Assembly: GCA_038879095.1 (NCBI GenBank)
Contig: JAVZUI010000003.1
Span: forward strand, 9,640 to 73,639
Length of the DNA stretch: 64,000 bases
Reading direction: 5' to 3'
Source of the DNA: Pyrobaculum sp.
GTDB lineage: Archaea > Thermoproteota > Thermoprotei > Thermoproteales > Thermoproteaceae
In this document: positions 8,470 to 44,698 of the stretch, piece by piece
How the letters are laid out: each line of letters opens with the position of its first letter
How positions within the stretch are numbered: position 1 is the first letter of the stretch
Position numbers and translations under genes: made by a program
Notes under the pieces: generated by a model
What the model was told of the DNA's origin: nothing
Seen by the model: the letters and a program-made list of their open reading frames with translations, nothing else
The model's database searches: none

Positions 8470-8812
8470 GGCTGCGGTCCGGGAGTGGGCGCCTGAGCTG
8501 GAGCAGTACCTGATAACTGAAGACAAGCTGCCCAAGGACTTGGTGGGCCCCGTCTTCATGAAGAGGGAGCTGGCCATATACGCCACGTTGGCGATTGCCG
8601 AAGACAACCCGGACACCTTCGTGGGGGTGCTGGACAGAGGGCTTTACATAAGAGTGGTGGGCAACAAGAGGCTGACGTTGAGGCGGAGGACGCTTGAGGA
8701 CTTGGCAGGCAGGGCCGTGAGGTTCCCCGGAGAGGTGGAGGAGATGATGTCGGCGTTCGCCGGTAAAATTAGGGTTACTGGAGAAGAAATATTGTGGTAC
8801 CTAGAGCTATGA
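8462..8812 (+). CDS. MmoB/DmpM-family monooxygenase effector protein
   Basis: 'VGPVFMKRELA...AEDNPDTFVGVLDRGLYIRVVGNKRLTLRRRTLEDLAGR...MSAFAGKI' is typical of TmoD/MmoB effectors. Confidence 0.8.
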   Translation: MSEAAVREWAPELEQYLITEDKLPKDLVGPVFMKRELAIYATLAIAEDNPDTFVGVLDRGLYIRVVGNKRLTLRRRTLEDLAGRAVRFPGEVEEMMSAFAGKIRVTGEEILWYLEL

Positions 8813-9930
8813 GCTGGGACGAAGTCTACAAAAAGATATTTGCCAAGGCCTCTTTCAACGAGAAGTTCTTCCGCGACGTGGAGTACCAGGGCTACAAGAG
8901 GACTTGGGTCACGTGGCCCATGCTGGAGAAGAAGATCGGCCGGAAGAGGCCTAGCGAGTACCAAGCGGTGAGCTACGCGCTGTCTTACTGGTCTCCTGAC
9001 CCCAACTCGCCCACGTATAGATACCTGGGCACGCCCTTTGAGCTAGGCACAGACTACCACATACAGAAGTGGTATATCTACTTCAGAGACCGGTCTCCGC
9101 TAGTCTCGGCAGTGGTCCAGGGAGGCGGTTGGCACGACTACCACGACCCACACGAGCTGGTCTACTGGAAGTACAACACAATGATGGACGAGGAGGAAAC
9201 ATTCGTCGATAGGCTATTGGAACAGATCGTGGCCACGAAACACGACACAAAGCTCTCGGAGGAACTGTTGAAGTTCTACAGAGACTACTACGACCCGCTC
9301 CGCTTCGTCTGGCACGCAATGCAGATGCACTGCGCCTACCTCTCTCAAATGGCCCCCACCTCCACTGTGCTGAACATATTTACGTTTATGGCCATGGACT
9401 ACTTGAGGAGGGTGCAGAGGATTGCCCAGAGAGTCAAGATGTTAGACATAGTGTACCCAGAATTCGGCTTCGGCCGGGCGGGGAGGAGGCAGTTTGAAGA
9501 GGACCCACACCTCCAGCCCACTAGACAAGTGTTAGAACAAATGCTAGTGGCTTACGACTACACAGAGGCCCTGGCCTCCTTCGCGCTGGCGGTGAAGCCC
9601 GCCTTAGACGCAATCTATTTGTCGGGATTCGCCAAGCTGGCTGAGCTGAATGGAGACAGGTACTTAGGCCAGATACACCTATCCTTCTTGAAGGATAGCC
9701 AACGCCACAGAGATCAGTTAGTGGCGTTGTTTAAGTACGCGTTTGAGAAAGCGCCGTCGGCCAAGGACGTGGTTAGGGGAATTGCAGACAGGTGGAGGAG
9801 GGCGGTGAGAGACGCCGCGAGGGCGCTAGGCCCCGTCTTGGAGTCCATGCCGGCGAAACTGCCGCTGGACGCCGTGGTGGCGGAGGTAGAGGAGGAGTGG
9901 AGAAGGCTGGACTCCGACATAGGGCTATGA
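8809..9930 (+). CDS. Soluble diiron monooxygenase hydroxylase beta subunit
   Basis: About 373 aa and ferritin-like helical, with 'WHDYHDPHELVYWKYNTMMDEEETFVDRLL' typical of TmoE/DmpL beta subunits. The ATG at 8809 overlaps the effector stop (ATGA). Confidence 0.75.
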   Translation: MSWDEVYKKIFAKASFNEKFFRDVEYQGYKRTWVTWPMLEKKIGRKRPSEYQAVSYALSYWSPDPNSPTYRYLGTPFELGTDYHIQKWYIYFRDRSPLVSAVVQGGGWHDYHDPHELVYWKYNTMMDEEETFVDRLLEQIVATKHDTKLSEELLKFYRDYYDPLRFVWHAMQMHCAYLSQMAPTSTVLNIFTFMAMDYLRRVQRIAQRVKMLDIVYPEFGFGRAGRRQFEEDPHLQPTRQVLEQMLVAYDYTEALASFALAVKPALDAIYLSGFAKLAELNGDRYLGQIHLSFLKDSQRHRDQLVALFKYAFEKAPSAKDVVRGIADRWRRAVRDAARALGPVLESMPAKLPLDAVVAEVEEEWRRLDSDIGL

Positions 9931-10388
9931 GTAGCCGGGAGCTTGTGGTGGGGGCTCTAAGGCAGGTGTACGACCCCGAGCTCCCTGAAAATATTTACGA
10001 CCTCGGCCTCATAAGAGAGGTCTACCTAGACGAGGCCAATAGAAGAGTGAAGGTGACGATGTTGTTCACGTCTGGGAGGATGTGCCCCGTGGCCGACATG
10101 ATGGCGGTGCAGGTGAAATACGCCATTAAACGCGCCCTACCTGAGTACGACGTAGACGTCAAGGTGGACTTTGAGACTAGGTGGACGCCTAAGATGGCCA
10201 CCCCGGAGGGGAGGAGGGCCTTAGAGGAGATTTTTGGAAGGGAGTACGTCGAATCTCTGTCGAGGGGCAAGGTCGTCGTGAGGGTACAACAGCCGCCGCC
10301 GGACTTCGACCCCATAGCGTATATGAGAGAAAGAGTAGAGGCCAGGTATAAAGTCTTTAAGGAGTGGCTAGAGCGCAACAAGGTGTAA
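9927..10388 (+). CDS. DUF59 (MIP18/PaaD/SufT-like) Fe-S or metal-assembly protein
   Basis: 'VYDPELPENIYDLGLIREVYLDE...VKVTMLFTSGRMCPVADMM' is the canonical DUF59 core. ATGA overlap with the beta subunit stop. Confidence 0.75.
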   Translation: MSSRELVVGALRQVYDPELPENIYDLGLIREVYLDEANRRVKVTMLFTSGRMCPVADMMAVQVKYAIKRALPEYDVDVKVDFETRWTPKMATPEGRRALEEIFGREYVESLSRGKVVVRVQQPPPDFDPIAYMRERVEARYKVFKEWLERNKV

Positions 10389-12172
10389 TGTCTTTTGTCG
10401 CCTTTTTTAAACAGATTCCCGATTTGAATTTTATTAGGCTTGACCCAGCCACTAAGAGAATCGTCAGAGAGGGCGTGCCCAACGTCATGAATCCCTTTGA
10501 CTACCACGCCATAGAGGGGGCCCTCTACCTTAGAGACGCCTTGGGGGGAAGGGCCGTGGCGGTCACCATGGGGCCGCCCAGTTTTAAACAGTCTGCGGAA
10601 GAGGCTCTGGCCATGGGCGTGGACTTGGTGGTCCATCTATCAGACAAGGCCTTTGCCGGAAGCGACACCTTGGCCACCTCAAGGGCACTGGCCCGCGCCG
10701 TGAAGGCATTTGCCCCGGATTACAAGGCAATATTTGCGGGCAAGTACTCGTGGGACGGCGACACGGGGCACGTGGGCCCCCAGACCGCCGAGCTTTTGGG
10801 CATTCCGCACGTAAGCGGCGTCGTGGAGGTCAGGATAAAAGGCGAAAGGGCGTCGGTGAGGAGAGAGGCGGAGGACGGCGAAGAGGAGCTGGAGGTGGAA
10901 CTGCCAGCATTGTTCACAGTGACCGACAGGGCCTTTAACCCAAGGCCTCCGGGCAAGCCAAAGGGCCGCTACGTAGTGGCCACCGCCGCAGACATCGGCG
11001 TAGATCTTTCCGAAGTGGGGGCCGCCGGGTCGCCCACTGTGGTGGAGGACTTATACGAAGAGAGGTGGGAGAGGGCCGGCGGCGTGGCGGTAGACGCCCG
11101 AAACGACCCAGATATAGGCGCTGAGGCGCTGTGGCGCTGGCTTAAGACAGTGGTTTCTTCTGCGGATCGGGGAGGCGCCGTCAGAGAGGCGCCCGTTAGG
11201 GAGAGAGGTCCCCGAGTGGTGGCGGTGGTGGCCGATGACAAGTGGGACGGGGGGCTTAGGAGGGTGTCTCTAGAGCTTTTAGGGAAGGCGGTGGAGCTGG
11301 CCGAGGCGGTGGGGGGCACCGTCGTTGCGCTATACGGCGGCTTAGAGGACCCCAGGACCCTAATTGCACACGGCGCGGACGAGGTGGTGTGGATAAGAGA
11401 GGCAGACCCCTTTGACATATACGCCCACGGGGAGGCGCTGGCGGAGTTTATACTTAAACGCAAGCCCTGGGCCGTGCTGGCCCCCTCCACCACCTACGGG
11501 AGGGACCTCATGTCGAGAGTTGCGGCGAGGCTGGGCCTAGGGTTGACCGCAGACTGTGTGGACTTCTCGGTTAGGGGGGGCGAGCTGTTGCAACACAAGC
11601 CCGCGTTCGGCGGAGGCGTCGTGTCTATTATACGGTCCAAGACGTACCCCCAGATGGCCACCGCGAGGCCCGGCATGTTCGAACCGCTGGCCCCAAACCC
11701 TAAGAGGAGTGGAGAAGTTTTAGAAATCAAGGCGCGCCCGAGGATGAGGACCACCTCGAGGACCCCCCGAGCCTCCGAGTGGCCAGACCCCCAAGAGGCC
11801 GGGGTGGTGGTGGGCGTTGGGAGGGGGTTTAAGAAGCCCGAAAACTTAAAGCCGGCCTTAGACTTGGCCAAGGCGCTGGGCGCGGCGGTGGCAGCCACTA
11901 GAAACGTGGTGCTGGCCGGCTGGCTTCCGTACCGGCTACAGGTAGGGGTCTCCGGCAAGGCCATAGCCCCCTTGGCCTACCTCGCCCTGGCAATTAGAGG
12001 CGACGTGAACCACGTGGTGGGGATCAGGAGGGCGAGGCACATAGCCGCCGTGAACATCAACCCCAGGGCCGAGATATTTAAAATCGCAGAGCTCGGCGTA
12101 GTGGGGGACGTCAATAAGATCGTCCCCCTCCTCTTAGAACGAGCGGTTAAGGAGCCGCTCTTTAAAAATTAA
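10388..12172 (+). CDS. Fused electron transfer flavoprotein, beta-alpha (FixA-FixB type) in one polypeptide
   Basis: The N-terminal half is ETF-beta-like ('NPFDYHAIEGAL...GSDTLATSRALARAV...DGDTGHVGPQTAELLGIPHV'). The C-terminal half is ETF-alpha-like ('TTYGRDLMSRVAARLGLGLTADC', 'QVGVSGKAIAPLAYLALAIRGDVNHVVGI'). TAATG overlap with the DUF59 stop. Confidence 0.85.
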   Translation: MSFVAFFKQIPDLNFIRLDPATKRIVREGVPNVMNPFDYHAIEGALYLRDALGGRAVAVTMGPPSFKQSAEEALAMGVDLVVHLSDKAFAGSDTLATSRALARAVKAFAPDYKAIFAGKYSWDGDTGHVGPQTAELLGIPHVSGVVEVRIKGERASVRREAEDGEEELEVELPALFTVTDRAFNPRPPGKPKGRYVVATAADIGVDLSEVGAAGSPTVVEDLYEERWERAGGVAVDARNDPDIGAEALWRWLKTVVSSADRGGAVREAPVRERGPRVVAVVADDKWDGGLRRVSLELLGKAVELAEAVGGTVVALYGGLEDPRTLIAHGADEVVWIREADPFDIYAHGEALAEFILKRKPWAVLAPSTTYGRDLMSRVAARLGLGLTADCVDFSVRGGELLQHKPAFGGGVVSIIRSKTYPQMATARPGMFEPLAPNPKRSGEVLEIKARPRMRTTSRTPRASEWPDPQEAGVVVGVGRGFKKPENLKPALDLAKALGAAVAATRNVVLAGWLPYRLQVGVSGKAIAPLAYLALAIRGDVNHVVGIRRARHIAAVNINPRAEIFKIAELGVVGDVNKIVPLLLERAVKEPLFKN

Positions 12173-33146: not shown

Positions 33147-34526
33147 ATGGCTAAATTTGTGCCGGACCCCACTCTCTACCCGACGCCTAGAGACGCGATG
33201 AAGGCCCCTCCTGAGGATCTGGCCTACGTGGCTGCGTTGTATGTTGGAACTGGGATAGAGAGACCAGACTTCCTCGCCGTGGTGGACGTGGATCCCAAGT
33301 CCCCCACCTACGGCAAGATTATATACAAACTGGAGATGCCTCATGTCGGCGACGAGCTTCACCACTTCGGCTGGAACGCCTGTTCCTCCGCCTTCTGCCC
33401 AAACGCCAGGCCGTTTTTAGAGAGGAGGTATCTGATCGTCCCAACCCTGCGCACTTCTAGGATATACGTGGTGGACACTAAGCCGGACCCCAGGAGGCCT
33501 TCTCTGGTGAAGGTAATAGAGGAGGGGCCCGCCAGGTCTGGCTACACTAAGTATCACACTGTCCACTGCGGCCCCGACGCCATTTACATATCTGCGCTGG
33601 GAGGCCCAGACGGCAGAGGGGGGCCCGGAGGGGTATTAGTCCTCGACCACGACGATTTTAAAGTCTTGGGCAGGTGGGAGGTGGATAGGGGTCCTCAGTA
33701 CCTGGCCTACGACTTTTGGTGGAACCTCCCCAGCGGCTACATGATAACCAGCGAGTGGGCCACGCCTGAGTGTTTTGAAGACGGCTTTAACCCCGGTTGT
33801 TTGAAAGAGGGTAGGTACGGAAATAGGCTACACGTCTGGGACATGGCCAAGAGGCGGCACCTATACGCCGTCGACCTGGGGCCGGAGGAGAGGATGGTCT
33901 TGGAGGTGAGGCCTCTGCACGACCCTACGAAGCTGATGGGCTATGTAAACGTGGTGCTGAACACCAAAGACTTGTCTAGCTCTGTGTGGCTTTGGTTCTT
34001 CGAAGACGGCAGATGGCGGGCGGAGAAGGTGATCGACATAGACGCCCAGCCCTCGGAGGGCCCCCTCCCGCCGCCGTTGAGAGACTTGAAGATGGTGCCG
34101 CCCCTGGTCACCGACATCGACATTTCGCTAGACGACAGGTTCCTATACGTGTCGCTTTGGGGCATCGGGGAGCTGAGGCAGTACGACATCACAGACCCGT
34201 TTAGGCCGAGGCTTGCCGGCGTCGTCAAGCTGGGCGGGATATACCACAGGGCGCCCCACCCCACGGGGGCTGAGCTGAGCGGAGCCCCTCAAATGATCAG
34301 CGTGAGTAGAGACGGGAGGCGGGTATACACCACAAACAGCCTGTACAGCTCTTGGGACAACCAGTTCTACCCAGGTCTGAGGGGCTGGATGGCAAAGATA
34401 AACGTGTCGCCCGAGGGCGGCATGACTGTGGAAAAAGAGTTCTTGGTAGACTTCGGAGAGGCGAGGGCACACCAGGTTAGGCTGAGGGGAGGGGACAGCT
34501 CCACAGACAGCTTCTGCTTCCCATAA
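33147..34526 (+). CDS. 56-kDa selenium-binding protein family (SBP56/methanethiol-oxidase family)
   Basis: 'DPTLYPTPRDAMKAPPEDLAYVAALY', 'DFLAVVDVDPKSPTYGKI', 'GDELHHFGWNACSS' and 'RIYVVDTKPDPRRP' are strong family signatures. Confidence 0.9.
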   Translation: MAKFVPDPTLYPTPRDAMKAPPEDLAYVAALYVGTGIERPDFLAVVDVDPKSPTYGKIIYKLEMPHVGDELHHFGWNACSSAFCPNARPFLERRYLIVPTLRTSRIYVVDTKPDPRRPSLVKVIEEGPARSGYTKYHTVHCGPDAIYISALGGPDGRGGPGGVLVLDHDDFKVLGRWEVDRGPQYLAYDFWWNLPSGYMITSEWATPECFEDGFNPGCLKEGRYGNRLHVWDMAKRRHLYAVDLGPEERMVLEVRPLHDPTKLMGYVNVVLNTKDLSSSVWLWFFEDGRWRAEKVIDIDAQPSEGPLPPPLRDLKMVPPLVTDIDISLDDRFLYVSLWGIGELRQYDITDPFRPRLAGVVKLGGIYHRAPHPTGAELSGAPQMISVSRDGRRVYTTNSLYSSWDNQFYPGLRGWMAKINVSPEGGMTVEKEFLVDFGEARAHQVRLRGGDSSTDSFCFP

Positions 34527-38924: not shown

Positions 38925-39751
38925 TCGCCTACGTCCCCCTCCACGTCTCCAGCATGTGGGCACCGGCGTACGACCCAGACGAGCTGAAGACGGGCTCAGT
39001 CGGCGCGGGGGTTCTCCTGTGGCCCGGCGTAAAGGTGAGGCTTGGCCGCGGGAGGAGGCTACCCCACGTCGACGCAGTGTTGGCGAGGCTGGGGGTGCGG
39101 GCCGAGGTTGCCTTTTCATCTCCCGCCGAGCCGGGGCAGGGATACGGCGTCAGCGGTGCGGTGGCGCTCGGCACAGCCATGATGGCGGCGGCCGCGGCGG
39201 GGAGGCCCCTGCTTCAAGCGGCCCAGGCGGCCCACGTCGTCGAGGTGGCGATGGGCACGGGGCTTGGGGACGTGGCCGCCCAGTTCCACGGCGGCGGCAT
39301 CGAGGTGAGGGTGAGGCCGGGGGCGCCTGGGGTAGGCCTCGTGGACAGAGTGCCGCACCCCGCCGGCTTGATGGCCCTTGTGCACGAGTACGGGCGCGAG
39401 GATACGTCGTCTATGCTGAGGAGGCTGGCCGGCTTCTTGGCGTCTGAGGGCAGGGAGCTGGTGGAGAGGTTTTTGAAAGAGCCTACCTACGACTCTTTTC
39501 TGAGGTACAGCGCCGAGTTCTCCAGGAGGGCGGGCTTCCTTACCCAAGACGTGGAGGCGAGGGCCTCGGCGTGTAGGCGTCTTTTCGACGGCTACTACGC
39601 GAAGAAGGGGGTCTTGGTGTTCTTGACGTACAGAGACGTGGTGGAGGATGCGGCGCGGTGCCTAAGCGGCGTGGGCCTTGCGGTTAGGCCCTTCCGCCTA
39701 GCGCACTCCGGAGCTCTTGTTTTTCACAGTAGGCCTCGTACTCCGCCATGA
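38915..39751 (+). CDS. Archaeal pantoate kinase (GHMP-kinase family, COG1829)
   Basis: GHMP motif 'PGQGYGVSGAVALGTAMMAA' and 'GTGLGDVAAQFHGGIEVR'. It overlaps the panE stop. Confidence 0.7.
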   Translation: MSLVAYVPLHVSSMWAPAYDPDELKTGSVGAGVLLWPGVKVRLGRGRRLPHVDAVLARLGVRAEVAFSSPAEPGQGYGVSGAVALGTAMMAAAAAGRPLLQAAQAAHVVEVAMGTGLGDVAAQFHGGGIEVRVRPGAPGVGLVDRVPHPAGLMALVHEYGREDTSSMLRRLAGFLASEGRELVERFLKEPTYDSFLRYSAEFSRRAGFLTQDVEARASACRRLFDGYYAKKGVLVFLTYRDVVEDAARCLSGVGLAVRPFRLAHSGALVFHSRPRTPP

Positions 39752-40244
39752 GCTCCACGTCTTGAGTCTCCTCCAGGACGAGCTTTACGATGGTGCATAC
39801 GTCGCTGATGACGTCTTCTTTCCGCGAGTAGAGGCTTAACACGGCCTCTGGGTCGAATCCGTTGAAGCTGAACTGGTAGAGGGCCAGGGCGGTGAGGACG
39901 TGTTTGCCAAGCCCAACCCTCTCTGCGAGGTCTCTGATGGCCGAGACGGGGACGTAGGCCACCAATATGTCGCCCATGCGCACCACGTCGGGGCCGATGC
40001 GCCTAGTCTCCGAGTACACGGAGTTCAGCTCGTCTCTAATCTTGCCCGCCCTGGCCGCCACGACGGACCTGAAGGCTAGGAAGGCCATGGCGGCGGCGTT
40101 TCTAAAGTAGCCGCTTTGCAACATCTTTATTGCCAAAAGCGCCTCGGAAACCGCCGACCTGCGCCTGGCGGCGACGTATTTAGAGGGGTACCTCCAAGGC
40201 TTTGGAAACCCCCTAAGAGTAAGAAGCGGCTCTATAGATTCCAT
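39684..40244 (-). CDS. PaREP1/PaREP8-like (HEPN-like) protein
   Basis: 'EALLAIKMLQSGYFRNAAAMAFLAFRSVVAA' and 'LALYQFSFNGFD' parallel the 'RNAAGKAF' and 'HEFQYNG' motifs of the other copies. Confidence 0.55.
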   Translation of the reverse strand: MESIEPLLTLRGFPKPWRYPSKYVAARRRSAVSEALLAIKMLQSGYFRNAAAMAFLAFRSVVAARAGKIRDELNSVYSETRRIGPDVVRMGDILVAYVPVSAIRDLAERVGLGKHVLTALALYQFSFNGFDPEAVLSLYSRKEDVISDVCTIVKLVLEETQDVELMAEYEAYCEKQELRSALGGRA

Positions 40245-40273: not shown

Positions 40274-40594
40274 TTACGCGTATAAAAAGAAGAGGGCCGC
40301 CAAGACTGCCAGTTCAAAAACTTCGAAAAACGAGTAGTACACCCCGTACTGGGAGTACCTGCCCAAGACCCCGGCGAAGTACAGAGGGACTCCCAGGAAG
40401 TGGACGGCGGCCATGAAGAGCACCAAAGGCCACAGGGGGCCGCCGCGGGCGAGGGCCCAGACGTAGAAGGCGGCTTCGTAAAGCGCAACTGCCTTGGCCC
40501 AGAGGCCTCGCGGGTACCTCCCCCTCCGCGAGTTTACCGCCGTCCACGCGTGTTTGTAAAACATGGGGACGAACAGCAGGGCGCTAAAGTCCAT
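40274..40594 (-). CDS. Small integral membrane protein (3 TM), downstream of the hemerythrin-like gene
   Basis: The 106-aa ORF is hydrophobic. Its start overlaps the hemerythrin gene end. Confidence 0.45.
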   Translation of the reverse strand: MDFSALLFVPMFYKHAWTAVNSRRGRYPRGLWAKAVALYEAAFYVWALARGGPLWPLVLFMAAVHFLGVPLYFAGVLGRYSQYGVYYSFFEVFELAVLAALFFLYA

Positions 40595-41123
40595 ACTTCT
40601 TTTTCAACTCGTCGAGCGTGGCCACCCACTTGTCGTGTTCGTGTTCTTTCTCGATGTCCTCCACGCTTCGGCTGGCGGACACCTCCGCCACGGCGGACTC
40701 GAGCATGGGGAAGAGGACGTTGTTCTCTTTGTCGATGTGCTGCGCCAGGTGGTCTATGTACAACTTGGCGTAGTCCACAAGCTCCGCCAACGCCCTCTGG
40801 TCGCCGGCCCTCCACGCCTTGTACAACTCCTCCATCACCCTGGCCAGATATCTGCCGACGCCGTGTTCAGAGACCATTACATAAATAGGCCCCCCTGCGA
40901 AGGGGAAGCCCGCCCTGTTCGCCCCTTGGAACAAGACGTACTCCTCCACGCCGTGGTGACACGCGTCGACGAAGCTCTGGGCGAAGCGGATGAGCTTAAT
41001 TACGTCCTCGGGGTCCGGCGAGGGCGAGGACAAGACCTTGTCTAACAGCTGTAGCGCCTCTAGAATCTTGTCGTGGTGCTCCCTCAAGGCCGAAGTGACG
41101 TACTTCACCCTTACTTTTACCAT
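40584..41123 (-). CDS. Hemerythrin-like (HHE cation-binding) diiron protein
   Basis: 'EHHDKILE', 'CHHGVEEYVLF' and 'HIDKENNVLFP' give repeated H/HxxxE ligand patterns. It has its own TATA-like box about 20 nt upstream. Confidence 0.75.
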   Translation of the reverse strand: MVKVRVKYVTSALREHHDKILEALQLLDKVLSSPSPDPEDVIKLIRFAQSFVDACHHGVEEYVLFQGANRAGFPFAGGPIYVMVSEHGVGRYLARVMEELYKAWRAGDQRALAELVDYAKLYIDHLAQHIDKENNVLFPMLESAVAEVSASRSVEDIEKEHEHDKWVATLDELKKKYGL

Positions 41124-41166
41124 GTATACGACGTCGTTTTATATTTAAAAATATTTTTGTGAAAAA

Positions 41167-42615
41167 TTACTTTCTTTTAAAAACAGTTCTAATGATTTGG
41201 ACTAAAAAGTATATTTGTGAGAAGGCGAGGAGAAGGCCGAAGGCGGCGATTATCAAAAGCCCATCTGTGGGGGCAAACGGCGCCATTGGGTAAGTGCGTC
41301 GGATTACGCTTTGGCTCCCAAGCCAGGAAAACGCGTAGAGTAACCCGACGGCGGCGACAAAAGTCGTGGCGATGTGCACATAAGCGGCTCTGTCGCCTAT
41401 CTTGCTGGGCAGGAGTAGAGACTGGTGCCTGTAGAAGTCCCCCAGCCACATGAGGAAGACTGCGAGTAATATGGCCATGAGGTGTGCCGTGGCGAAATAC
41501 GTTCCGTGCATTACAAAAGATAGGCCTATGGTGGCGAGGAGCATGGCCAAGAACCCGTCTGCTATGTACAAGGTAAAGCCGAGGTAGGCGGCTAACAGCG
41601 GCGGAGAGATCTTAGCCTTGTACTTTGCCAACGTTGCCGCTATGTTGAAGACAGAAAACGCGGCGCCGAATCCCACCAGCCAGCTGGCAATTTGAGAAAC
41701 TACGCTTAGGCCAAAGGGCTGGGTGGAAGACATGGTGTACAAGTGGTGGCCGAAGGCAAAGGGGGCGGCTATTGTGTAGATCAATATAGCAACGCGCCCC
41801 AAGGTGTCGCTGTATAAAACAGCCTCTCTGCTCTCGGTGCATCTAGAAATGACCCAGTAGGCAGTTCCGAGGGCCATAACGCCCATCACCTCCATCAAAG
41901 TGTGGGCGAACAGCCAAAAGGCGTAGTTAAAGTTCACAGGCTCTAACAGCTGGACGATGGCGGGAAGTCCCAGTAGGAACAACGCCGCAGACGCCGCGGC
42001 AAGCAGAACGGGCGCGCCCACGGTGGGCAGTATAAAGACCGCGGGGACCATGCCCATCATGCCCCTCGGGCTGAGGTTCCCCAGCGACTTTTCTAACACA
42101 AGGTCGGGGACAGACCTGCCGAAGAACAAGAGGCGGGCGAGAGAGGCTGGGTAGACCAAGGCTATGGCCGCCACCAGCATAATAACGCCTATTACAAAAA
42201 GAGTCAGCTCGGGGCGGCCCCACATTAAGCCCAGCCCAGCCGCGGGCAAGGGGAACATCAAAGTGTAGCTAGTCCTAACCCCCATGACCACTGCGGAAAG
42301 CGCCAGCAAGCCGCCTAGATTTAGGAAAATGAAGAGTAGCTTTTCAAGCCACGTGTCTGTCCTCCTGCCGTTGCAAAAACCTGCCCTTAGGAGAGACAGA
42401 GAGGCGGTGAACTGGAAGAGGCCGGGGAATGTGGTGATGAGACCGTGTAGCGACATGGCTATGTAATACTCGGCGGGGCTTTCGCTCCGCGTGAGCTGGG
42501 CCAGCACCATGTAGGGGCCGAAGAAGGCGCCTACAAACAGCCAAATCACAGAGGCGAAGAACATCCGGCGAGGGATTTTAGAGAGGGCCTCTATGTACTG
42601 CAACAGCCCGCTCAT
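41167..42615 (-). CDS. Heme-copper oxidase superfamily subunit I, divergent (His3+Glu active-site signature)
   Basis: Helix II 'SLHGLITTF', helix VI 'FWLFAHTLMEVMG', helix VII 'FAFGHHLYTM', helix X 'MHGTYFATAHLM'. About 12 TM segments. No Tyr at His+4; a Glu occupies that position. Confidence 0.8.
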   Translation of the reverse strand: MSGLLQYIEALSKIPRRMFFASVIWLFVGAFFGPYMVLAQLTRSESPAEYYIAMSLHGLITTFPGLFQFTASLSLLRAGFCNGRRTDTWLEKLLFIFLNLGGLLALSAVVMGVRTSYTLMFPLPAAGLGLMWGRPELTLFVIGVIMLVAAIALVYPASLARLLFFGRSVPDLVLEKSLGNLSPRGMMGMVPAVFILPTVGAPVLLAAASAALFLLGLPAIVQLLEPVNFNYAFWLFAHTLMEVMGVMALGTAYWVISRCTESREAVLYSDTLGRVAILIYTIAAPFAFGHHLYTMSSTQPFGLSVVSQIASWLVGFGAAFSVFNIAATLAKYKAKISPPLLAAYLGFTLYIADGFLAMLLATIGLSFVMHGTYFATAHLMAILLAVFLMWLGDFYRHQSLLLPSKIGDRAAYVHIATTFVAAVGLLYAFSWLGSQSVIRRTYPMAPFAPTDGLLIIAAFGLLLAFSQIYFLVQIIRTVFKRK

Positions 42616-43121
42616 GGCCTCACATACAGCCTGGCCATCATAAAGGCGTGCCCATCGCCGCAGTACTCAAGGCAACGTAGCGTATACACGCCCGGCGGCA
42701 GATATAAAGTAACTACCTCTTTATGACCTGGCATTAACATAACAGTGGCGAGGAGCCTCCCATTTTCGTCGTATATCCCCATGCTGTGCATAGTGTCTCT
42801 AGACGTGGCGACAAACGTAACGTACCCGCTCTTCACCTCCGCAGACGAGAGCTGAAAACCCCACATATAAGCCGTGACGTACAACGTGGCGTTCACCTCT
42901 CCATGGCTTTTGCCCACGTCGCCGGGAATCCAGCTGAAACTGGCCACATTTACAGCCAGCCACAAAGCCGCCACTGAGAGCAACCACAATGCCTCCGCCA
43001 CGGTAGGAGGGCTCCTTTTTCTTTTAGCTGAGGCGATAAGTATGTACAGATACACAACAATAAACGGAATTGTAGTAACTAGAAGAAACGTATAGACGCT
43101 AATAGGGGTGTTTGTAATCAT
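42612..43121 (-). CDS. Heme-copper oxidase subunit II with CuA-type cupredoxin domain
   Basis: Two N-terminal TM segments, then 'DTMHSMGI' and 'CLEYCGDGHAFM' (H...CxExCGxxHxxM). ATGA overlap with subunit I. Confidence 0.8.
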   Translation of the reverse strand: MITNTPISVYTFLLVTTIPFIVVYLYILIASAKRKRSPPTVAEALWLLSVAALWLAVNVASFSWIPGDVGKSHGEVNATLYVTAYMWGFQLSSAEVKSGYVTFVATSRDTMHSMGIYDENGRLLATVMLMPGHKEVVTLYLPPGVYTLRCLEYCGDGHAFMMARLYVRP

Positions 43122-43224
43122 GAGCTGGAAAAATTATGTTTTTAATGAATATTTTGGTGAAAGAAATGCAGTGAATAAATTACACAATAATTAAAAAATC
43201 TAATTCTATTTCTATCTATTTCTA

Positions 43225-44115
43225 CTATTGAGCCTCGAATCCAGATAGCATGACTACGCTCTCTGTGGTAAACGCCAGCGCCACGCCGAGGGTTAGGGAA
43301 AGCCAAAACTTCGGGCTCATGACGCCTCCCAGCTTCGACAAGGCGTTTAAATTCACGTGCAACATGGCGTAGACAATGGATGCGTTAGCCACCGAGTTTA
43401 ACACTGCCAGCACAAGGCCGTGAGTAACCCCGAGGTAGTAGACCCCAGCCCCAGCCACTGTCGGCAACCCCGCAAGTAGCGAGAGCCAAAATAACGACAG
43501 AAGCGGGGGGTTCTTCCTGCCGGCCAGTAGCGGTCCCACTATTGCGAAGCCCTCCGTGGCGTTGTGCACGGCGAAGCCCACTGTGAACAACACAGCAGAG
43601 GCCAGCGCCCCCGCGAGCAAGCTCGCCGCAATTGCAAAGCCCTCCCCCACGTTGTGTACGCCCAGTGCGGCGGCGACGATGAAAGCCGTGGCCGTGGACT
43701 GTTCAAAGCCGCTACGTATAGCGGCCTTTTCAACACGGGTAAGGACTAGAAACGTAAGTACAAAAGCCAGCGTAGTAACTATCGACGCTACGACAAAATC
43801 TCCTATTGTTTCCCACCTCGCCAACTCCTCTACATATTCAGCCGCCGCGTGGCCTGTCTCTAGGGCTAAGTACGCCAACACGCCTCCTGCTACAGCTTGT
43901 AAAATGCCAAGTGAGGTGTTGCTTAGCCTACCCCGCAGGAAATACAGCGCATAAGCCCCTATAAACACTGTTATACCAGCAATAAGCCCAAAGACCAGCG
44001 GAAGCAGAGATACCGAAGTGGCAGAGGGCGGGTTGTACAAAAGGCCGAAGCCCACTGCCAAGCCTAAGCTAGCAAGGCTCCACAGCTTTGTCTTCCCATG
44101 TATCTTCCACGCCAC
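43225..44115 (-). CDS. ZIP-family divalent metal transporter (ZupT/GufA-like)
   Basis: Duplicated 'HNVGEGFAIA' and 'HNATEGFAIVG' motifs in a polytopic protein. Confidence 0.8.
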   Translation of the reverse strand: MAWKIHGKTKLWSLASLGLAVGFGLLYNPPSATSVSLLPLVFGLIAGITVFIGAYALYFLRGRLSNTSLGILQAVAGGVLAYLALETGHAAAEYVEELARWETIGDFVVASIVTTLAFVLTFLVLTRVEKAAIRSGFEQSTATAFIVAAALGVHNVGEGFAIAASLLAGALASAVLFTVGFAVHNATEGFAIVGPLLAGRKNPPLLSLFWLSLLAGLPTVAGAGVYYLGVTHGLVLAVLNSVANASIVYAMLHVNLNALSKLGGVMSPKFWLSLTLGVALAFTTESVVMLSGFEAQ

Positions 44116-44185: not shown

Positions 44186-44533
44186 CTACTTTGCAAACGT
44201 TGTTATTAGTAAATCAGTTTGTGCCTTTAACTCCCTAGCTGGCAACTTAGACGTGTTACATAGTGCCAATGCTTTTCTGAAACTTTTTGATATGAAATAT
44301 ACCGCGCCGTAACCCGTCCCCGCTTTTTCTACCATGTAGTGTTTTTCTAATACCGCTAGGTGGTACCTCACAGTTTTATAATCTAGCTTTAACTCTTGGG
44401 CGAGCTGATGTGCGTTCTTAGGCATCTGGCGTAGGGACTTTACAATTTTTAAACGAGTTTCCCCGCCTCGTGAAGCCACAAAAAGTAAAATTATTAACTT
44501 CCGGACATGTACAACGTGGGGAGCGTGAGTCAT
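44186..44533 (-). CDS. ArsR-like winged-helix transcriptional regulator
   Basis: 'RLKIVKSLRQMPKNAHQLAQELKLDYKTVRYHLAVLEKHYMVEK'. It lies directly upstream of the ZIP transporter on the same strand. Confidence 0.7.
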   Translation of the reverse strand: MTHAPHVVHVRKLIILLFVASRGGETRLKIVKSLRQMPKNAHQLAQELKLDYKTVRYHLAVLEKHYMVEKAGTGYGAVYFISKSFRKALALCNTSKLPARELKAQTDLLITTFAK

Positions 44534-44698
44534 AACTTAGTAATACCAGCTCTGCGCGTCGACTCCCCGTTCATAGGGCAAGGCGGCACTTGGGAGAGCT
44601 CACCTGTCGAAATTGCTCTAGAGCCAGGCAGATATGAATTTTATTGTAGGCCGCATAGAGGCTTGGTCATGGTGGGCGTTTTGACTGTAGAGCCGTGA
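44507..44698 (+). CDS. Mini cupredoxin-like ORF (possible 5'-truncated blue-copper protein remnant)
   Basis: 'SHNLVI' and 'YEFYCRPHRGLVMVG' (H ... CxxHxxxxM type-1 Cu ligand pattern). Only 63 codons are open, and the start overlaps the ArsR gene start. Confidence 0.35.
   Translation: MYNVGSVSHNLVIPALRVDSPFIGQGGTWESSPVEIALEPGRYEFYCRPHRGLVMVGVLTVEP

What the first reader, a model, noticed from the sequence alone, without database searches (positions are those of the whole stretch)
40274..43121. Heme-copper oxidase with a NOR-like His3+Glu catalytic signature, a CuA subunit II and a hemerythrin-like gene
- Seen: subunit I keeps the heme ligands ('SLHGL' in helix II, 'MHGTYFATAH' in helix X). 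It also keeps the three metal-B histidines ('FAHTLMEV' in helix VI, 'GHHLY' in helix VII).
- The residue four positions after the helix VI His is Glu (H-T-L-M-E), not the cross-linked Tyr of A/B-type O2 reductases (HPEVY, HPIVY).
- Established: in cNOR/qNOR NorB the same position (HLWVE) is the Glu that ligates non-heme FeB.
- Subunit II has a complete CuA motif ('H...CLEYCGDGHAFM'), unlike cNOR or qNOR.
- Immediately downstream, with its own promoter, is a hemerythrin-like diiron protein. This is the class to which NorA/YtfE/ScdA-type NO-related proteins belong. A small membrane protein follows it.
- Inference: this is a candidate CuA-dependent nitric oxide reductase derived from the B family of heme-copper oxidases, rather than a terminal oxidase.
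Basis: partly seen in the sequence, partly recalled or inferred. Interest (0 to 1): 0.75.

Follow-up and report, generated by a model that had tools for sequence, protein, structure and literature searches.

The report
Rare nNOR-type nitric oxide reductase operon
A Pyrobaculum-like hot-spring archaeon carries a rare two-gene respiratory enzyme that looks like an oxygen-reducing oxidase rebuilt to reduce nitric oxide; it matches the published but never assayed "nNOR" family, and the neighbouring hemerythrin gene is a separate module.

Summary
The four genes are real and lie on the minus strand. They are subunit II (42612-43121), subunit I (41167-42615), a hemerythrin-domain protein (40584-41123) and a small membrane protein (40274-40594).

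Subunit I has the three metal-B histidines (H238, H290, H291). Glu242 sits at His+4, where oxygen reductases carry the cross-linked Tyr.

The second ligand of the low-spin heme is Met380 (H378-L-M380), not His, and H370 is not a heme ligand.

All these residues, and the CuA ligands of subunit II, are invariant across the family. Members come from Caldarchaeales, one Pyrobaculum, Chloroflexota and a Halobacteria MAG. The family is tiny and sharply isolated. In 1.84 billion representative proteins, 12 hits score below E 1e-30, then scores fall from 370 to 117 bits. The next-best relatives are sNOR-like (His+4 = Asn).

This fingerprint equals the nNOR family of Murali et al. 2024, which is proposed but not biochemically characterised.

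The hemerythrin and small membrane genes form a native Thermoproteaceae pair. They occur elsewhere without any oxidase and are not conserved partners.

Verdict: the NOR reading is supported, but this is a new member of a known kind.

The parts
42612..43121 (-). Subunit II, 169 aa: two N-terminal hydrophobic segments (likely membrane helices) plus a cupredoxin domain with a complete CuA site (H112, C150, E152, C154, H158, M161). Its stop codon overlaps the subunit I start by 4 nt.
   Evidence: ORF. Weak CoxB/SoxA/NosZ C-terminal hits. CuA ligands located and conserved in all 17 related loci.
41167..42615 (-). Subunit I, 482 aa, heme-copper oxidoreductase catalytic subunit of nNOR type. Ligands and their codons: H57 (42445-42447) and M380 (41476-41478) for the low-spin heme; H378 (41482-41484) for the high-spin heme; H238 (41902-41904), E242 (41890-41892), H290 and H291 (41743-41748) for the metal-B site. 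R439/R440 is the pair that from my own knowledge binds the haem propionates in A/B-type oxidases.
   Evidence: PF00115. Bovine COX1 alignment. Family invariants. AF2 model with pLDDT 83 and pTM 0.88. Fold matches. Codon coordinates.
43122..43224 (-). AT-rich intergenic region upstream of subunit II, with a TATA-like 'TTCATTAAAAAC' about 25-30 nt before the ATG. Putative operon promoter.
   Evidence: Sequence read. Inferred only; no archaeal promoter tool was available.
41124..41166 (-). 43-nt spacer between subunit I and the hemerythrin gene. A T5 tract follows the stop codon directly (terminator-like). 'TTTAAATA' lies 19-26 nt upstream of the hemerythrin ATG (promoter-like, implying a leaderless transcript).
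   Evidence: Sequence read. Inferred only.
40584..41123 (-). Hemerythrin HHE-domain protein, 179 aa. It is a neighbour, not a conserved component. It belongs to a native Thermoproteaceae two-gene module.
   Evidence: PF01814. RIC/YtfE/DnrN hits far below cut-off. Homologues at 60-92% identity in Pyrobaculum and Thermoproteus. Found without any oxidase. GC3 is 0.82, like native genes, against 0.59-0.70 for the oxidase genes.
40274..40594 (-). Small hydrophobic protein, 106 aa, no family match. It overlaps the hemerythrin gene by 11 nt and travels with the hemerythrin gene, not with the oxidase.
   Evidence: tblastn finds it beside the hemerythrin gene in L016 and L026-L031, and never in the other nNOR loci.
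43225..44115 (-). Membrane protein, 296 aa, with a sub-threshold ZIP metal-transporter match, directly upstream of subunit II. Shared only with the Pyrobaculum KC_015 locus, where it is truncated. Context, not a family component.
   Evidence: PF02535 at E 0.003, below cut-off. tblastn. GC3 0.63.
44186..44533 (-). ArsR/SmtB-type winged-helix regulator, 115 aa, same strand and upstream. GC3 is 0.42. Possible regulator of the block; untested.
   Evidence: PF01022 at E 1.7e-10. NF033788. GC3.
44507..44698 (+). 63-aa remnant of a plastocyanin-like type-1 copper protein. It keeps 'SHN' and 'C-x2-H-x4-M' but lacks the N-terminal strands. Blue copper proteins are the kind of donor that could feed CuA.
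   Evidence: PF00127 at E 6.7e-7, covering only profile positions 68-99. Three-frame translation shows stop codons just upstream. L016 keeps a longer version with no start codon.

Best explanation
Genes 42612-43121 and 41167-42615 encode a two-subunit heme-copper oxidoreductase of the nNOR family. This lineage descends from CuA-containing A/B-type oxygen reductases and has converged on the catalytic site of cNOR/qNOR.

**Proposed mechanism (inferred, not shown).**
- A periplasmic one-electron donor, a blue copper protein or cytochrome c, reduces CuA in subunit II.
- Electrons pass to a low-spin heme ligated by His57 and Met380. According to Murali et al. 2024 (PMC11214002), this pairing raises its potential.
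- They then reach a binuclear centre. It consists of the high-spin heme (proximal ligand His378) and a non-heme metal, probably Fe, held by His238, His290, His291 and Glu242.
- There, 2 NO + 2 e- + 2 H+ give N2O + H2O.
- Without the His-Tyr cofactor, four-electron O2 reduction is unlikely.
- Conserved polar residues on helices VI-VIII (Y253, Y280, S311, S321, N324, T328) could deliver protons from the cytoplasm. That would make the reaction electrogenic.

**Boundaries of the system.** The operon is the two genes only. The hemerythrin and small membrane genes downstream are a separate, native Thermoproteaceae module. The oxidase block happens to lie beside it in this Pyrobaculum lineage.
For: **Shown here.**
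- Domain and fold.
- Residue equivalences to bovine COX1, including Y244 to E242 and H378 to M380.
- Invariance of all ligands in 24 members from Thermoproteales, Caldarchaeales, Chloroflexota and Halobacteria.
- The same His-x3-Glu register and ligand spacing as a cNOR NorB.
- A complete CuA site in every subunit II.
- Subunit II and subunit I are the only genes shared by all 17 loci.
- The family forms one clade with 98/100 NJ bootstrap. It is isolated from all other oxidases: profile scores drop from 370 to 117 bits.
- The next-best group carries His+4 = Asn and includes Ca. Methylomirabilis oxyfera sequences, so it is sNOR.

**From the literature.**
- nNOR is defined by cNOR-like active-site residues, B-family ancestry, His/Met low-spin heme, a CuA-type subunit II and a conserved channel (PMC11214002).
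- nNOR is described as close to sNOR and as having a His-to-Met ligand change (bioRxiv 10.1101/592808).
- Ca. Calditenuis fumarioli, which carries a homologue (L010), is reported to have nirK but no recognised NOR (PMC10547907).
Against: - No nNOR has ever been assayed, so the function rests on analogy.
- I could not score the protein against the authors' own nNOR sequences or HMM, because the supplements are not held.
- No denitrification gene was found among the genes checked within 10 kb on either side or among ten larger ORFs elsewhere in the window. None lies next to the Caldarchaeales homologues either.
- The sister group is unresolved: nNOR plus sNOR group together in only 3/100 bootstraps.
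- The geometry of Glu242 relative to the metal site was not measured.
- The only other Pyrobaculum copy carries eight frame-breaking indels. The enzyme is therefore dispensable, or that assembly is poor.
- Many hosts are aerobes from oxic springs.
Confidence: 0.7

Rival explanations
1. It is still a terminal oxygen reductase, an aberrant B-type oxidase, used for aerobic or microaerobic respiration. Glu242 or another residue would substitute functionally for the cross-linked Tyr.
For: - Fold and sequence matches are all to A- and B-type O2 reductases.
- It has CuA and the Arg pair typical of oxidases.
- Hosts such as Calditenuis live in oxic springs and respire O2.
- Public annotation calls these proteins cytochrome c oxidases.
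Against: - The His-Tyr cofactor is stated to be required for O2 reduction in this superfamily (PMC11214002).
- No Tyr occurs at His+4 or at the C-family helix VII position in any of 24 members.
- The Glu is invariant and in the cNOR register.
- Calditenuis aerorheumensis is described as using a different oxidase, a subunit I+III fusion, as its respiratory enzyme.
Confidence: 0.08
2. The His3-Glu/His-Met enzyme catalyses a different reaction from NO reduction to N2O. Examples are NO dismutation, N2O reduction or peroxide/ROS chemistry. Such reactions have been proposed for other divergent relatives (NOD, 'N2O red').
For: - The family is unassayed.
- It is very isolated: a long branch and a drop from 370 to 117 bits.
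- The Met ligand and extra invariant residues (Y155, Y350, D353, C81) have no assigned role.
- No nir or nos gene is nearby.
Against: - The first-shell ligands are exactly those of cNOR/qNOR.
- The proposed NOD and N2O-reductase families are described as relatives of qNOR and cNOR, not of this lineage.
Confidence: 0.1
3. Oxidase, hemerythrin and small membrane protein work together, for example as NorA/RIC-like NO buffering or Fe-S repair coupled to NO reduction.
For: - The genes are adjacent, on the same strand and 43 nt apart in the window. The same arrangement occurs in Pyrobaculum KC_015.
- The protein has a hemerythrin domain with weak similarity to the RIC/DnrN C-terminus.
- In other Thermoproteaceae the pair lies beside aconitase and fumarase genes, which are Fe-S enzymes.
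Against: - The pair is present in many Thermoproteaceae with no oxidase nearby.
- It is absent from all 15 non-Pyrobaculum nNOR loci.
- Terminator-like and TATA-like signals separate the genes.
- Codon composition differs: GC3 0.80-0.82 against 0.59-0.70.
- RIC model scores are about 30 bits against cut-offs above 200.
Confidence: 0.15
4. The operon is a decaying, non-functional relic of a horizontal acquisition.
For: - GC3 is lower than in native neighbours.
- The KC_015 copy has 3 + 5 frame-breaking indels, and the ZIP-like and cupredoxin genes are truncated.
- The window protein has 10 private changes at positions otherwise invariant.
Against: - In the window both ORFs are intact and every metal ligand is kept.
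- The identical protein recurs on 8 contigs from several samples.
- Divergence from KC_015 is biased to the third codon position, with a ratio of 0.32-0.34, so the genes were under purifying selection.
Confidence: 0.05

Closest known systems
nNOR family of heme-copper oxidoreductases (Murali et al. 2024, PNAS, PMC11214002; first named in bioRxiv 10.1101/592808)
   Same: - Three His plus Glu at the metal-B site, and no active-site Tyr.
- Low-spin heme ligated by His and Met.
- CuA-type subunit II.
- Descent from the A/B oxidase side, with sNOR-like sequences as the next-best relatives.
[quoted passage not shown]
- Rare, and present in both Archaea and Bacteria.
   Different: - Nothing tested here contradicts membership.
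- A direct comparison with the authors' reference set was not possible.
- Within the family, the window protein is the most divergent archaeal member and the only intact Thermoproteales one found. It is 46-51% identical to the Caldarchaeales members.
cNOR / qNOR (NorB), e.g. the norCB pair on Thiothrix plasmid pTfr153 read here (L032)
   Same: - Identical first-shell ligand set and register: His-x3-Glu, HH and the proximal His.
- Nearly identical spacings between ligands.
- The presumed chemistry, 2 NO to N2O.
   Different: - The partner is a CuA subunit, not cytochrome c NorC or a quinol site.
- The low-spin heme is His/Met, not His/His.
- The second Glu of 'HLWVEGVWE' is absent.
- Sequence profiles do not connect the two.
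- Fold search ranks A/B oxidases first.
- The resemblance is therefore convergent.
sNOR and bNOR (qCuANOR of Bacillus azotoformans)
   Same: - B-family-derived enzymes with a CuA-type subunit II and the Tyr lost.
- sNOR-like proteins are the next-best hits to the family profile.
   Different: - They carry Asn, not Glu, at His+4.
- They keep the His/His low-spin heme (H-F-H).
B-family oxygen reductases (Thermus thermophilus cytochrome ba3)
   Same: - A 12-13 helix subunit I and a small CuA subunit II.
- An Arg pair and a Tyr at His+15 (Y253). The ba3 equivalents, R449/R450 at the haem propionates and the K-channel Tyr248, are cited from my own knowledge.
- Structural match with TM about 0.75.
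   Different: - The cross-linked Tyr is replaced by Glu.
- One heme ligand His is replaced by Met.
- It is therefore not expected to reduce O2.
RIC/YtfE/ScdA/DnrN and NorA hemerythrin-like proteins (for gene 40584-41123)
   Same: A hemerythrin HHE cation-binding domain.
   Different: - Only the last ~60 residues match the RIC models, at about 30 bits against cut-offs of 204-300.
- No other domain was detected.
- It is not linked to nor genes in other genomes.

Membership tests
nNOR (Murali et al. 2024) | Catalytic subunit is a heme-copper oxidoreductase subunit I | tested here: met
   PF00115 at E 7.7e-31. AF2 model with pTM 0.88 matches COX1 and ba3 structures with TM 0.74-0.83.
nNOR (Murali et al. 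2024) | Active-site residues as in cNOR/qNOR: three His plus a Glu, and no cross-linked Tyr | tested here: met
   H238, E242, H290 and H291 align to bovine H240, Y244, H290 and H291. They are invariant in 24 members. No Tyr sits at the C-family position (A284). The register is the same as NorB H200-x3-E204.
nNOR (Murali et al. 2024) | Low-spin heme ligated by His and Met | tested here: met
   M380 aligns to bovine H378. The H-x-M motif is invariant in the family, whereas all neighbouring families have H-x-H.
nNOR (Murali et al. 2024) | Secondary subunit is a homologue of the CuA-containing subunit II | tested here: met
   H112, C150, E152, C154, H158 and M161 are present and conserved in 17 of 17 loci.
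nNOR (Murali et al. 2024) | Related to the B-family and close to sNOR, only distantly to cNOR/qNOR | tested here: inconclusive
   - Next-best profile hits are His+4 = Asn proteins, including the Ca. Methylomirabilis oxyfera sNOR, followed by HP[VI]VY B-like proteins.
- No NOR structure appears in the top 50 fold matches.
- The NJ tree does not resolve the sister group.
- The PDB profile search reaches only A-type oxidases.
nNOR (Murali et al. 2024) | Conserved proton channel at the K-channel location | tested here: inconclusive
   Y253, S311 and T328 are invariant. Y280, S304, Q308 and N324 are nearly invariant and S321 is at least 90% conserved in the 20-sequence alignment. All lie on helices VI-VIII. 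Connectivity could not be checked without coordinates.
nNOR (Murali et al. 2024) | Scores best with, or clusters within, the authors' reference nNOR sequences or HMM | not testable with these tools
   The supplementary datasets are not held.
nNOR (Murali et al. 2024) | NO reductase activity | not testable with these tools
   The paper proposes rather than measures activity for nNOR, and no report of an assay turned up in the papers searched.
cNOR / qNOR | Electron entry through cytochrome c NorC or a quinol site, with no CuA | tested here: not met
   The partner gene encodes a complete CuA cupredoxin.
cNOR / qNOR | Sequence relationship to NorB and the C-family | tested here: not met
   - The family profile finds no NOR in the PDB at E up to 1.
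- hhalign against a NorB gives only a spurious 37-column match with probability 17%.
B-family O2 reductase (ba3 type) | Cross-linked Tyr at His+4 in helix VI | tested here: not met
   The position is Glu in all 24 members.
sNOR / bNOR | Asn at His+4 with a His/His low-spin heme | tested here: not met
   The window has Glu and His/Met. The Asn/His-His group is a separate set of sequences.
RIC/YtfE/ScdA/DnrN (hemerythrin gene) | Passes the curated equivalog models | tested here: not met
   Scores of 34, 31 and 29 bits against cut-offs of 254, 205 and 300, covering only residues ~107-177.
RIC/YtfE/ScdA/DnrN (hemerythrin gene) | Conserved genomic linkage to NO-reductase genes (as for norA/dnrN) | tested here: not met
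   Homologues in Thermoproteus and Pyrobaculum lie beside unrelated genes. No nNOR locus outside Pyrobaculum has one.

The most novel reading that the evidence does not exclude
The family may be more than a duplicate NOR. Three features are seen together: a retained cytoplasmic proton path, a CuA entry site, and a His/Met low-spin heme that the literature predicts to be high-potential. They could make it a proton-motive, energy-conserving NO reductase working above 80 °C. Alternatively it could catalyse a reaction not yet seen in the superfamily. In this Pyrobaculum lineage it may have been recruited next to a hemerythrin/membrane-protein pair for a combined NO-handling role.
Probability: 0.15. 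Interest if true: 0.7.

Novelty: new member of a known kind. Interest (0 to 1): 0.42.

Why it matters
**Biological interest.**
- nNOR is the rarest of the proposed alternative NO reductases. Murali et al. 2024 count it in 6 NCBI genomes and 32 GTDB genomes. Here there are 12 hits below E 1e-30 in 1.84 billion representative proteins.
- It has never been purified.
- If it does reduce NO using CuA and a cytoplasmic proton path, NO reduction can conserve energy. That point bears on how denitrification evolved from aerobic respiration.

**Practical interest.**
- A copy in a Pyrobaculum-type genome is useful, because Pyrobaculum includes cultivated denitrifying hyperthermophiles (own knowledge).
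- Calditenuis, which carries homologues, is now maintained in enrichment culture.

**Annotation.**
- These genes are currently labelled 'cbb3-type' or 'alternative' cytochrome c oxidase.
- Genomes such as Ca. Calditenuis fumarioli are therefore reported to have nirK but no NOR.

Tried and rejected
1. **Sequence and profile search of the PDB**. It reached only A-type oxidases, not ba3 or any NOR. Direct residue alignment to ba3 and cNOR structures was therefore not obtained.
2. **hhalign of the family profile against a cNOR NorB**. The result was a spurious local match. I fell back on ligand motifs and spacings.
3. **NJ phylogeny** (after a timed-out first attempt). The family clade is robust but its sister group is unresolved. 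No ML tree software was available.
4. **Genomic context as functional evidence.** No nir, nar or nos genes lie near the window operon or near two Caldarchaeales homologues.
5. **Hemerythrin as a NOR accessory.** Rejected as a conserved component.
6. **Small membrane protein as an extra oxidase subunit, like ba3 subunit IIa.** Rejected, because it co-occurs with the hemerythrin gene and not with the oxidase.
7. **Recent transfer from sampled Caldarchaeales.** Not supported. The window protein branches outside them. Third-position divergence from KC_015 is the same for oxidase and flanking genes, about 0.30.
8. **Supplementary data.** Supplements of the nNOR paper and the Calditenuis paper are not held.
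9. **Literature search for FeB ligand numbering.** It returned nothing.
10. **Distance from Glu242 to the metal site.** It could not be measured, because structure prediction returns no coordinates.

Full report
**What is there.**
Four ORFs lie head to tail on the minus strand:
- subunit II, 42612-43121, 169 aa;
- subunit I, 41167-42615, 482 aa, with its start overlapping the subunit II stop by 4 nt;
- a hemerythrin-domain protein, 40584-41123, 179 aa;
- a hydrophobic 106-aa protein, 40274-40594, overlapping the hemerythrin gene by 11 nt.

Pfam gives PF00115 for subunit I (E 7.7e-31) and PF01814 for the hemerythrin (E 2e-28). It gives nothing for subunit II or the small protein. NCBIfam gives only sub-threshold CoxB, SoxA and NosZ C-terminal hits for subunit II. 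For the hemerythrin it gives sub-threshold RIC/YtfE/DnrN hits over the C-terminus only.

A PaREP1 gene follows at 39684-40244. The block is syntenic at 82% DNA identity with a contig of 'Pyrobaculum sp. KC_015'. The host is therefore a Pyrobaculum-like member of the Thermoproteaceae. The identical protein is on record in MAG GCA_038893295.1 and in several hot-spring metagenome contigs.

**Checking the catalytic signature.**
HMMER aligned subunit I to bovine COX1 residue by residue:

| Window residue | Bovine COX1 | Role |
|---|---|---|
| H238 | H240 | metal-B ligand |
| E242 | Y244 | position of the cross-linked Tyr |
| H290, H291 | H290, H291 | metal-B ligands |
| H370 | H368 | not a heme ligand |
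| H378 | H376 | proximal ligand of the high-spin heme |
| M380 | H378 | second ligand of the low-spin heme |

The claim that helix X 'keeps the heme ligands' is not. One axial ligand of the low-spin heme has changed from His to Met.

In the AF2 model (pLDDT 83, pTM 0.88) residues 229-258 form one helix. E242 therefore lies one turn below H238 on the same face.

I also read a genuine norCB pair from a Thiothrix plasmid. It shows the cNOR register H200-x3-E204. Its ligand spacings are VI to VII 51 and VII to X 88, against 52 and 87 in the window protein.

The C-family alternative is a Tyr about six residues before the HH pair. That position is occupied by Ala or Ser in every family member.

**How big and how distinct the family is.**
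- A word-indexed search of 5.8 billion proteins found only 19 relatives, all 42-51% identical.
- An exhaustive HMMER profile search of 1.84 billion cluster representatives found 12 hits below E 1e-30. Scores then dropped sharply from 370 to 117 bits.
- A scan of 185,579 species-representative genomes found 17 loci: eleven in Caldarchaeales ('Aigarchaeota'), one in Pyrobaculum and five in Chloroflexota (Thermomicrobium, Thermoflexus, HR28).
- One further cluster is from a Halobacteria MAG.
- In 24 full-length members, H57, H238, E242, H290, H291, H378, M380 and R439/R440 are invariant.
- Every locus has the subunit II gene immediately upstream, with all CuA ligands intact.

**Relatives.**
I aligned the best full-length hits of the profile search and read off the helix VI and helix X motifs. 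Three layers appear:
- the family itself: H-[NT]-L-M-E with H-x-M;
- a group with H-x3-N and H-F-H;
- B-like (HP[VI]VY) and A-type (HPEVY) oxidases.

The Asn group includes the Ca. Methylomirabilis oxyfera/NC10 protein. The literature lists that organism as having an sNOR.

An NJ tree recovers the Glu/Met family as a clade in 98 of 100 bootstraps, on a long branch. It does not resolve the sister group.

Foldseek ranks A-type oxidases and ba3 first, with no NOR structure in the top 50. The family profile does not reach NorB by sequence.

The cNOR-like site is therefore convergent, on an A/B-type scaffold that keeps CuA and an invariant Arg pair, which from my own knowledge binds the haem propionates in A/B-type oxidases.

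**Comparison with what is known.**
Murali et al. 2024 (PMC11214002) define nNOR by five traits:
- the same active-site residues as cNOR/qNOR;
- relationship to the B-family;
- a low-spin heme ligated by His and Met;
- a homologue of the CuA-containing subunit II;
- a conserved proton channel.

They find it in both Bacteria and Archaea, in 6 NCBI genomes and 32 GTDB genomes. An earlier preprint adds the His-to-Met change and closeness to sNOR.

The window enzyme meets every trait I could test. I could not run it against the authors' own sequences. The paper proposes NO reduction for nNOR rather than measuring it, and I found no report of an assay.

The best description is therefore a new, and the only intact, Thermoproteales member of a published but uncharacterised family.

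**Mechanism (inferred).**
- Electrons enter at CuA from a periplasmic donor.
- They pass through the His/Met heme, which the authors estimate to be about 150 mV more positive.
- They reach a heme/non-heme-metal centre with His3-Glu ligation, where two NO are reduced to N2O.
- Conserved polar residues on helices VI-VIII lie where the K-channel runs in ba3. Y253 (His+15), S311 and T328 are invariant. Y280, S304, Q308 and N324 are nearly so, and S321 is at least 90% conserved in the 20-sequence alignment.
- Proton uptake from the cytoplasm, and hence charge separation, is plausible but unproven.

**The neighbours.**
The hemerythrin gene has homologues at 60-92% identity across Pyrobaculum and Thermoproteus. 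In those genomes it is always accompanied by the small membrane gene but never by an oxidase. Its neighbours there include a trypsin-like protease, a TrmB-type regulator, or aconitase and fumarase. None of the 15 non-Pyrobaculum nNOR loci has either gene.

Codon composition also differs:

| Genes | GC3 |
|---|---|
| Hemerythrin, small membrane protein | 0.82, 0.80 |
| Native neighbours | 0.80-0.86 |
| Subunit I, subunit II | 0.70, 0.59 |
| ZIP-like gene | 0.63 |
| ArsR gene | 0.42 |

A T5 tract and a TTTAAATA box separate subunit I from the hemerythrin gene. I conclude that the hemerythrin pair is an independent native module, and that the oxidase block was probably acquired beside it. Their adjacency is weak evidence for NO-related function.

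Third-position divergence between the window and KC_015 is the same, about 0.30, for all genes of the block. The arrangement therefore predates the split of these two lineages.

**Context that bears on function.**
- No nitrite, nitrate or nitrous-oxide reductase gene turned up within 10 kb on either side or among ten larger ORFs checked elsewhere in the window.
- None lies beside two Caldarchaeales homologues either.
- One indirect point favours the NOR reading. Ca. Calditenuis fumarioli carries a homologue (L010). It is reported to encode nirK while 'no nitric oxide reductase' was identified.
- Against that, many hosts are aerobes. They are, however, described as respiring with a different oxidase of the subunit I+III fusion type.

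**Verdict.**
- The NOR interpretation is supported at the level of sequence and published inference.
- The hemerythrin link is not supported.
- The finding is a new member of a known, uncharacterised kind, of moderate interest. Its main values are as an annotation correction and as a lead toward the first biochemical test of nNOR.

Noticed in passing
L016:7100-9450 (Pyrobaculum sp. KC_015, JBEULK010000030.1), syntenic with window 41167-44115: Relative to the window, the only other Pyrobaculum copy of the operon has 3 frame-breaking indels in subunit II and 5 in subunit I, and a truncated ZIP-like gene. The adjacent hemerythrin and PaREP1 genes have only in-frame indels. Substitutions are still biased to the third codon position. 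This points to recent pseudogenisation or to assembly error.
   Followed up: partly
window 44507-44698 (+), overlapping the ArsR gene 44186-44533 (-): A 63-aa remnant of a plastocyanin-like blue copper protein keeps the type-1 copper ligands but lacks the N-terminal strands. KC_015 keeps a longer version with no start codon. It may be the decayed electron donor of the CuA enzyme.
   Followed up: partly
L030:6001-10594 and L031:624-5217 (Thermoproteaceae metagenome contigs): The hemerythrin and small-membrane-protein pair sits directly beside aconitase and fumarase genes. In E. coli these Fe-S enzymes are repaired by RIC/YtfE-type di-iron proteins (own knowledge). This hints at a role for the pair that is independent of the oxidase.
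   Followed up: no
window 8794-9930 (+) and 10364-12172 (+): An ORF with a strong match to the soluble di-iron methane/phenol/alkene hydroxylase family (PF02332, E 2.5e-53) is followed by a fused electron-transfer flavoprotein beta-alpha gene of 602 aa.
   Followed up: no
window 33147-34526 (+): A full-length 56-kDa selenium-binding protein homologue (PF05694, E 2e-193). This is the family that includes methanethiol oxidases (own knowledge).
   Followed up: no
window 43225-44115 (-); L001:8501-9391: The ZIP-like membrane gene upstream of subunit II is called as one 296-aa product in the NCBI MAG. In an ENA metagenome contig that is 99% identical it is called as two pieces of 97 and 141 aa. This suggests a disrupted variant in the population.
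   Followed up: no
L008 and L013 (Archaeon HR02, contigs BEHE01000030 and BEHE01000007): One Calditenuaceae genome carries two separate subunit II-subunit I pairs of this family. They are 48% and 46% identical to the window protein.
   Followed up: no
Public names of family members and of a true norB: Family members and a genuine cNOR norB are all labelled 'cbb3-type cytochrome c oxidase subunit I' or 'alternative cytochrome c oxidase' in public annotation. Standard pipelines therefore hide NO reductases. An example is the 'no NOR' statement for Ca. Calditenuis fumarioli in PMC10547907.
   Followed up: partly
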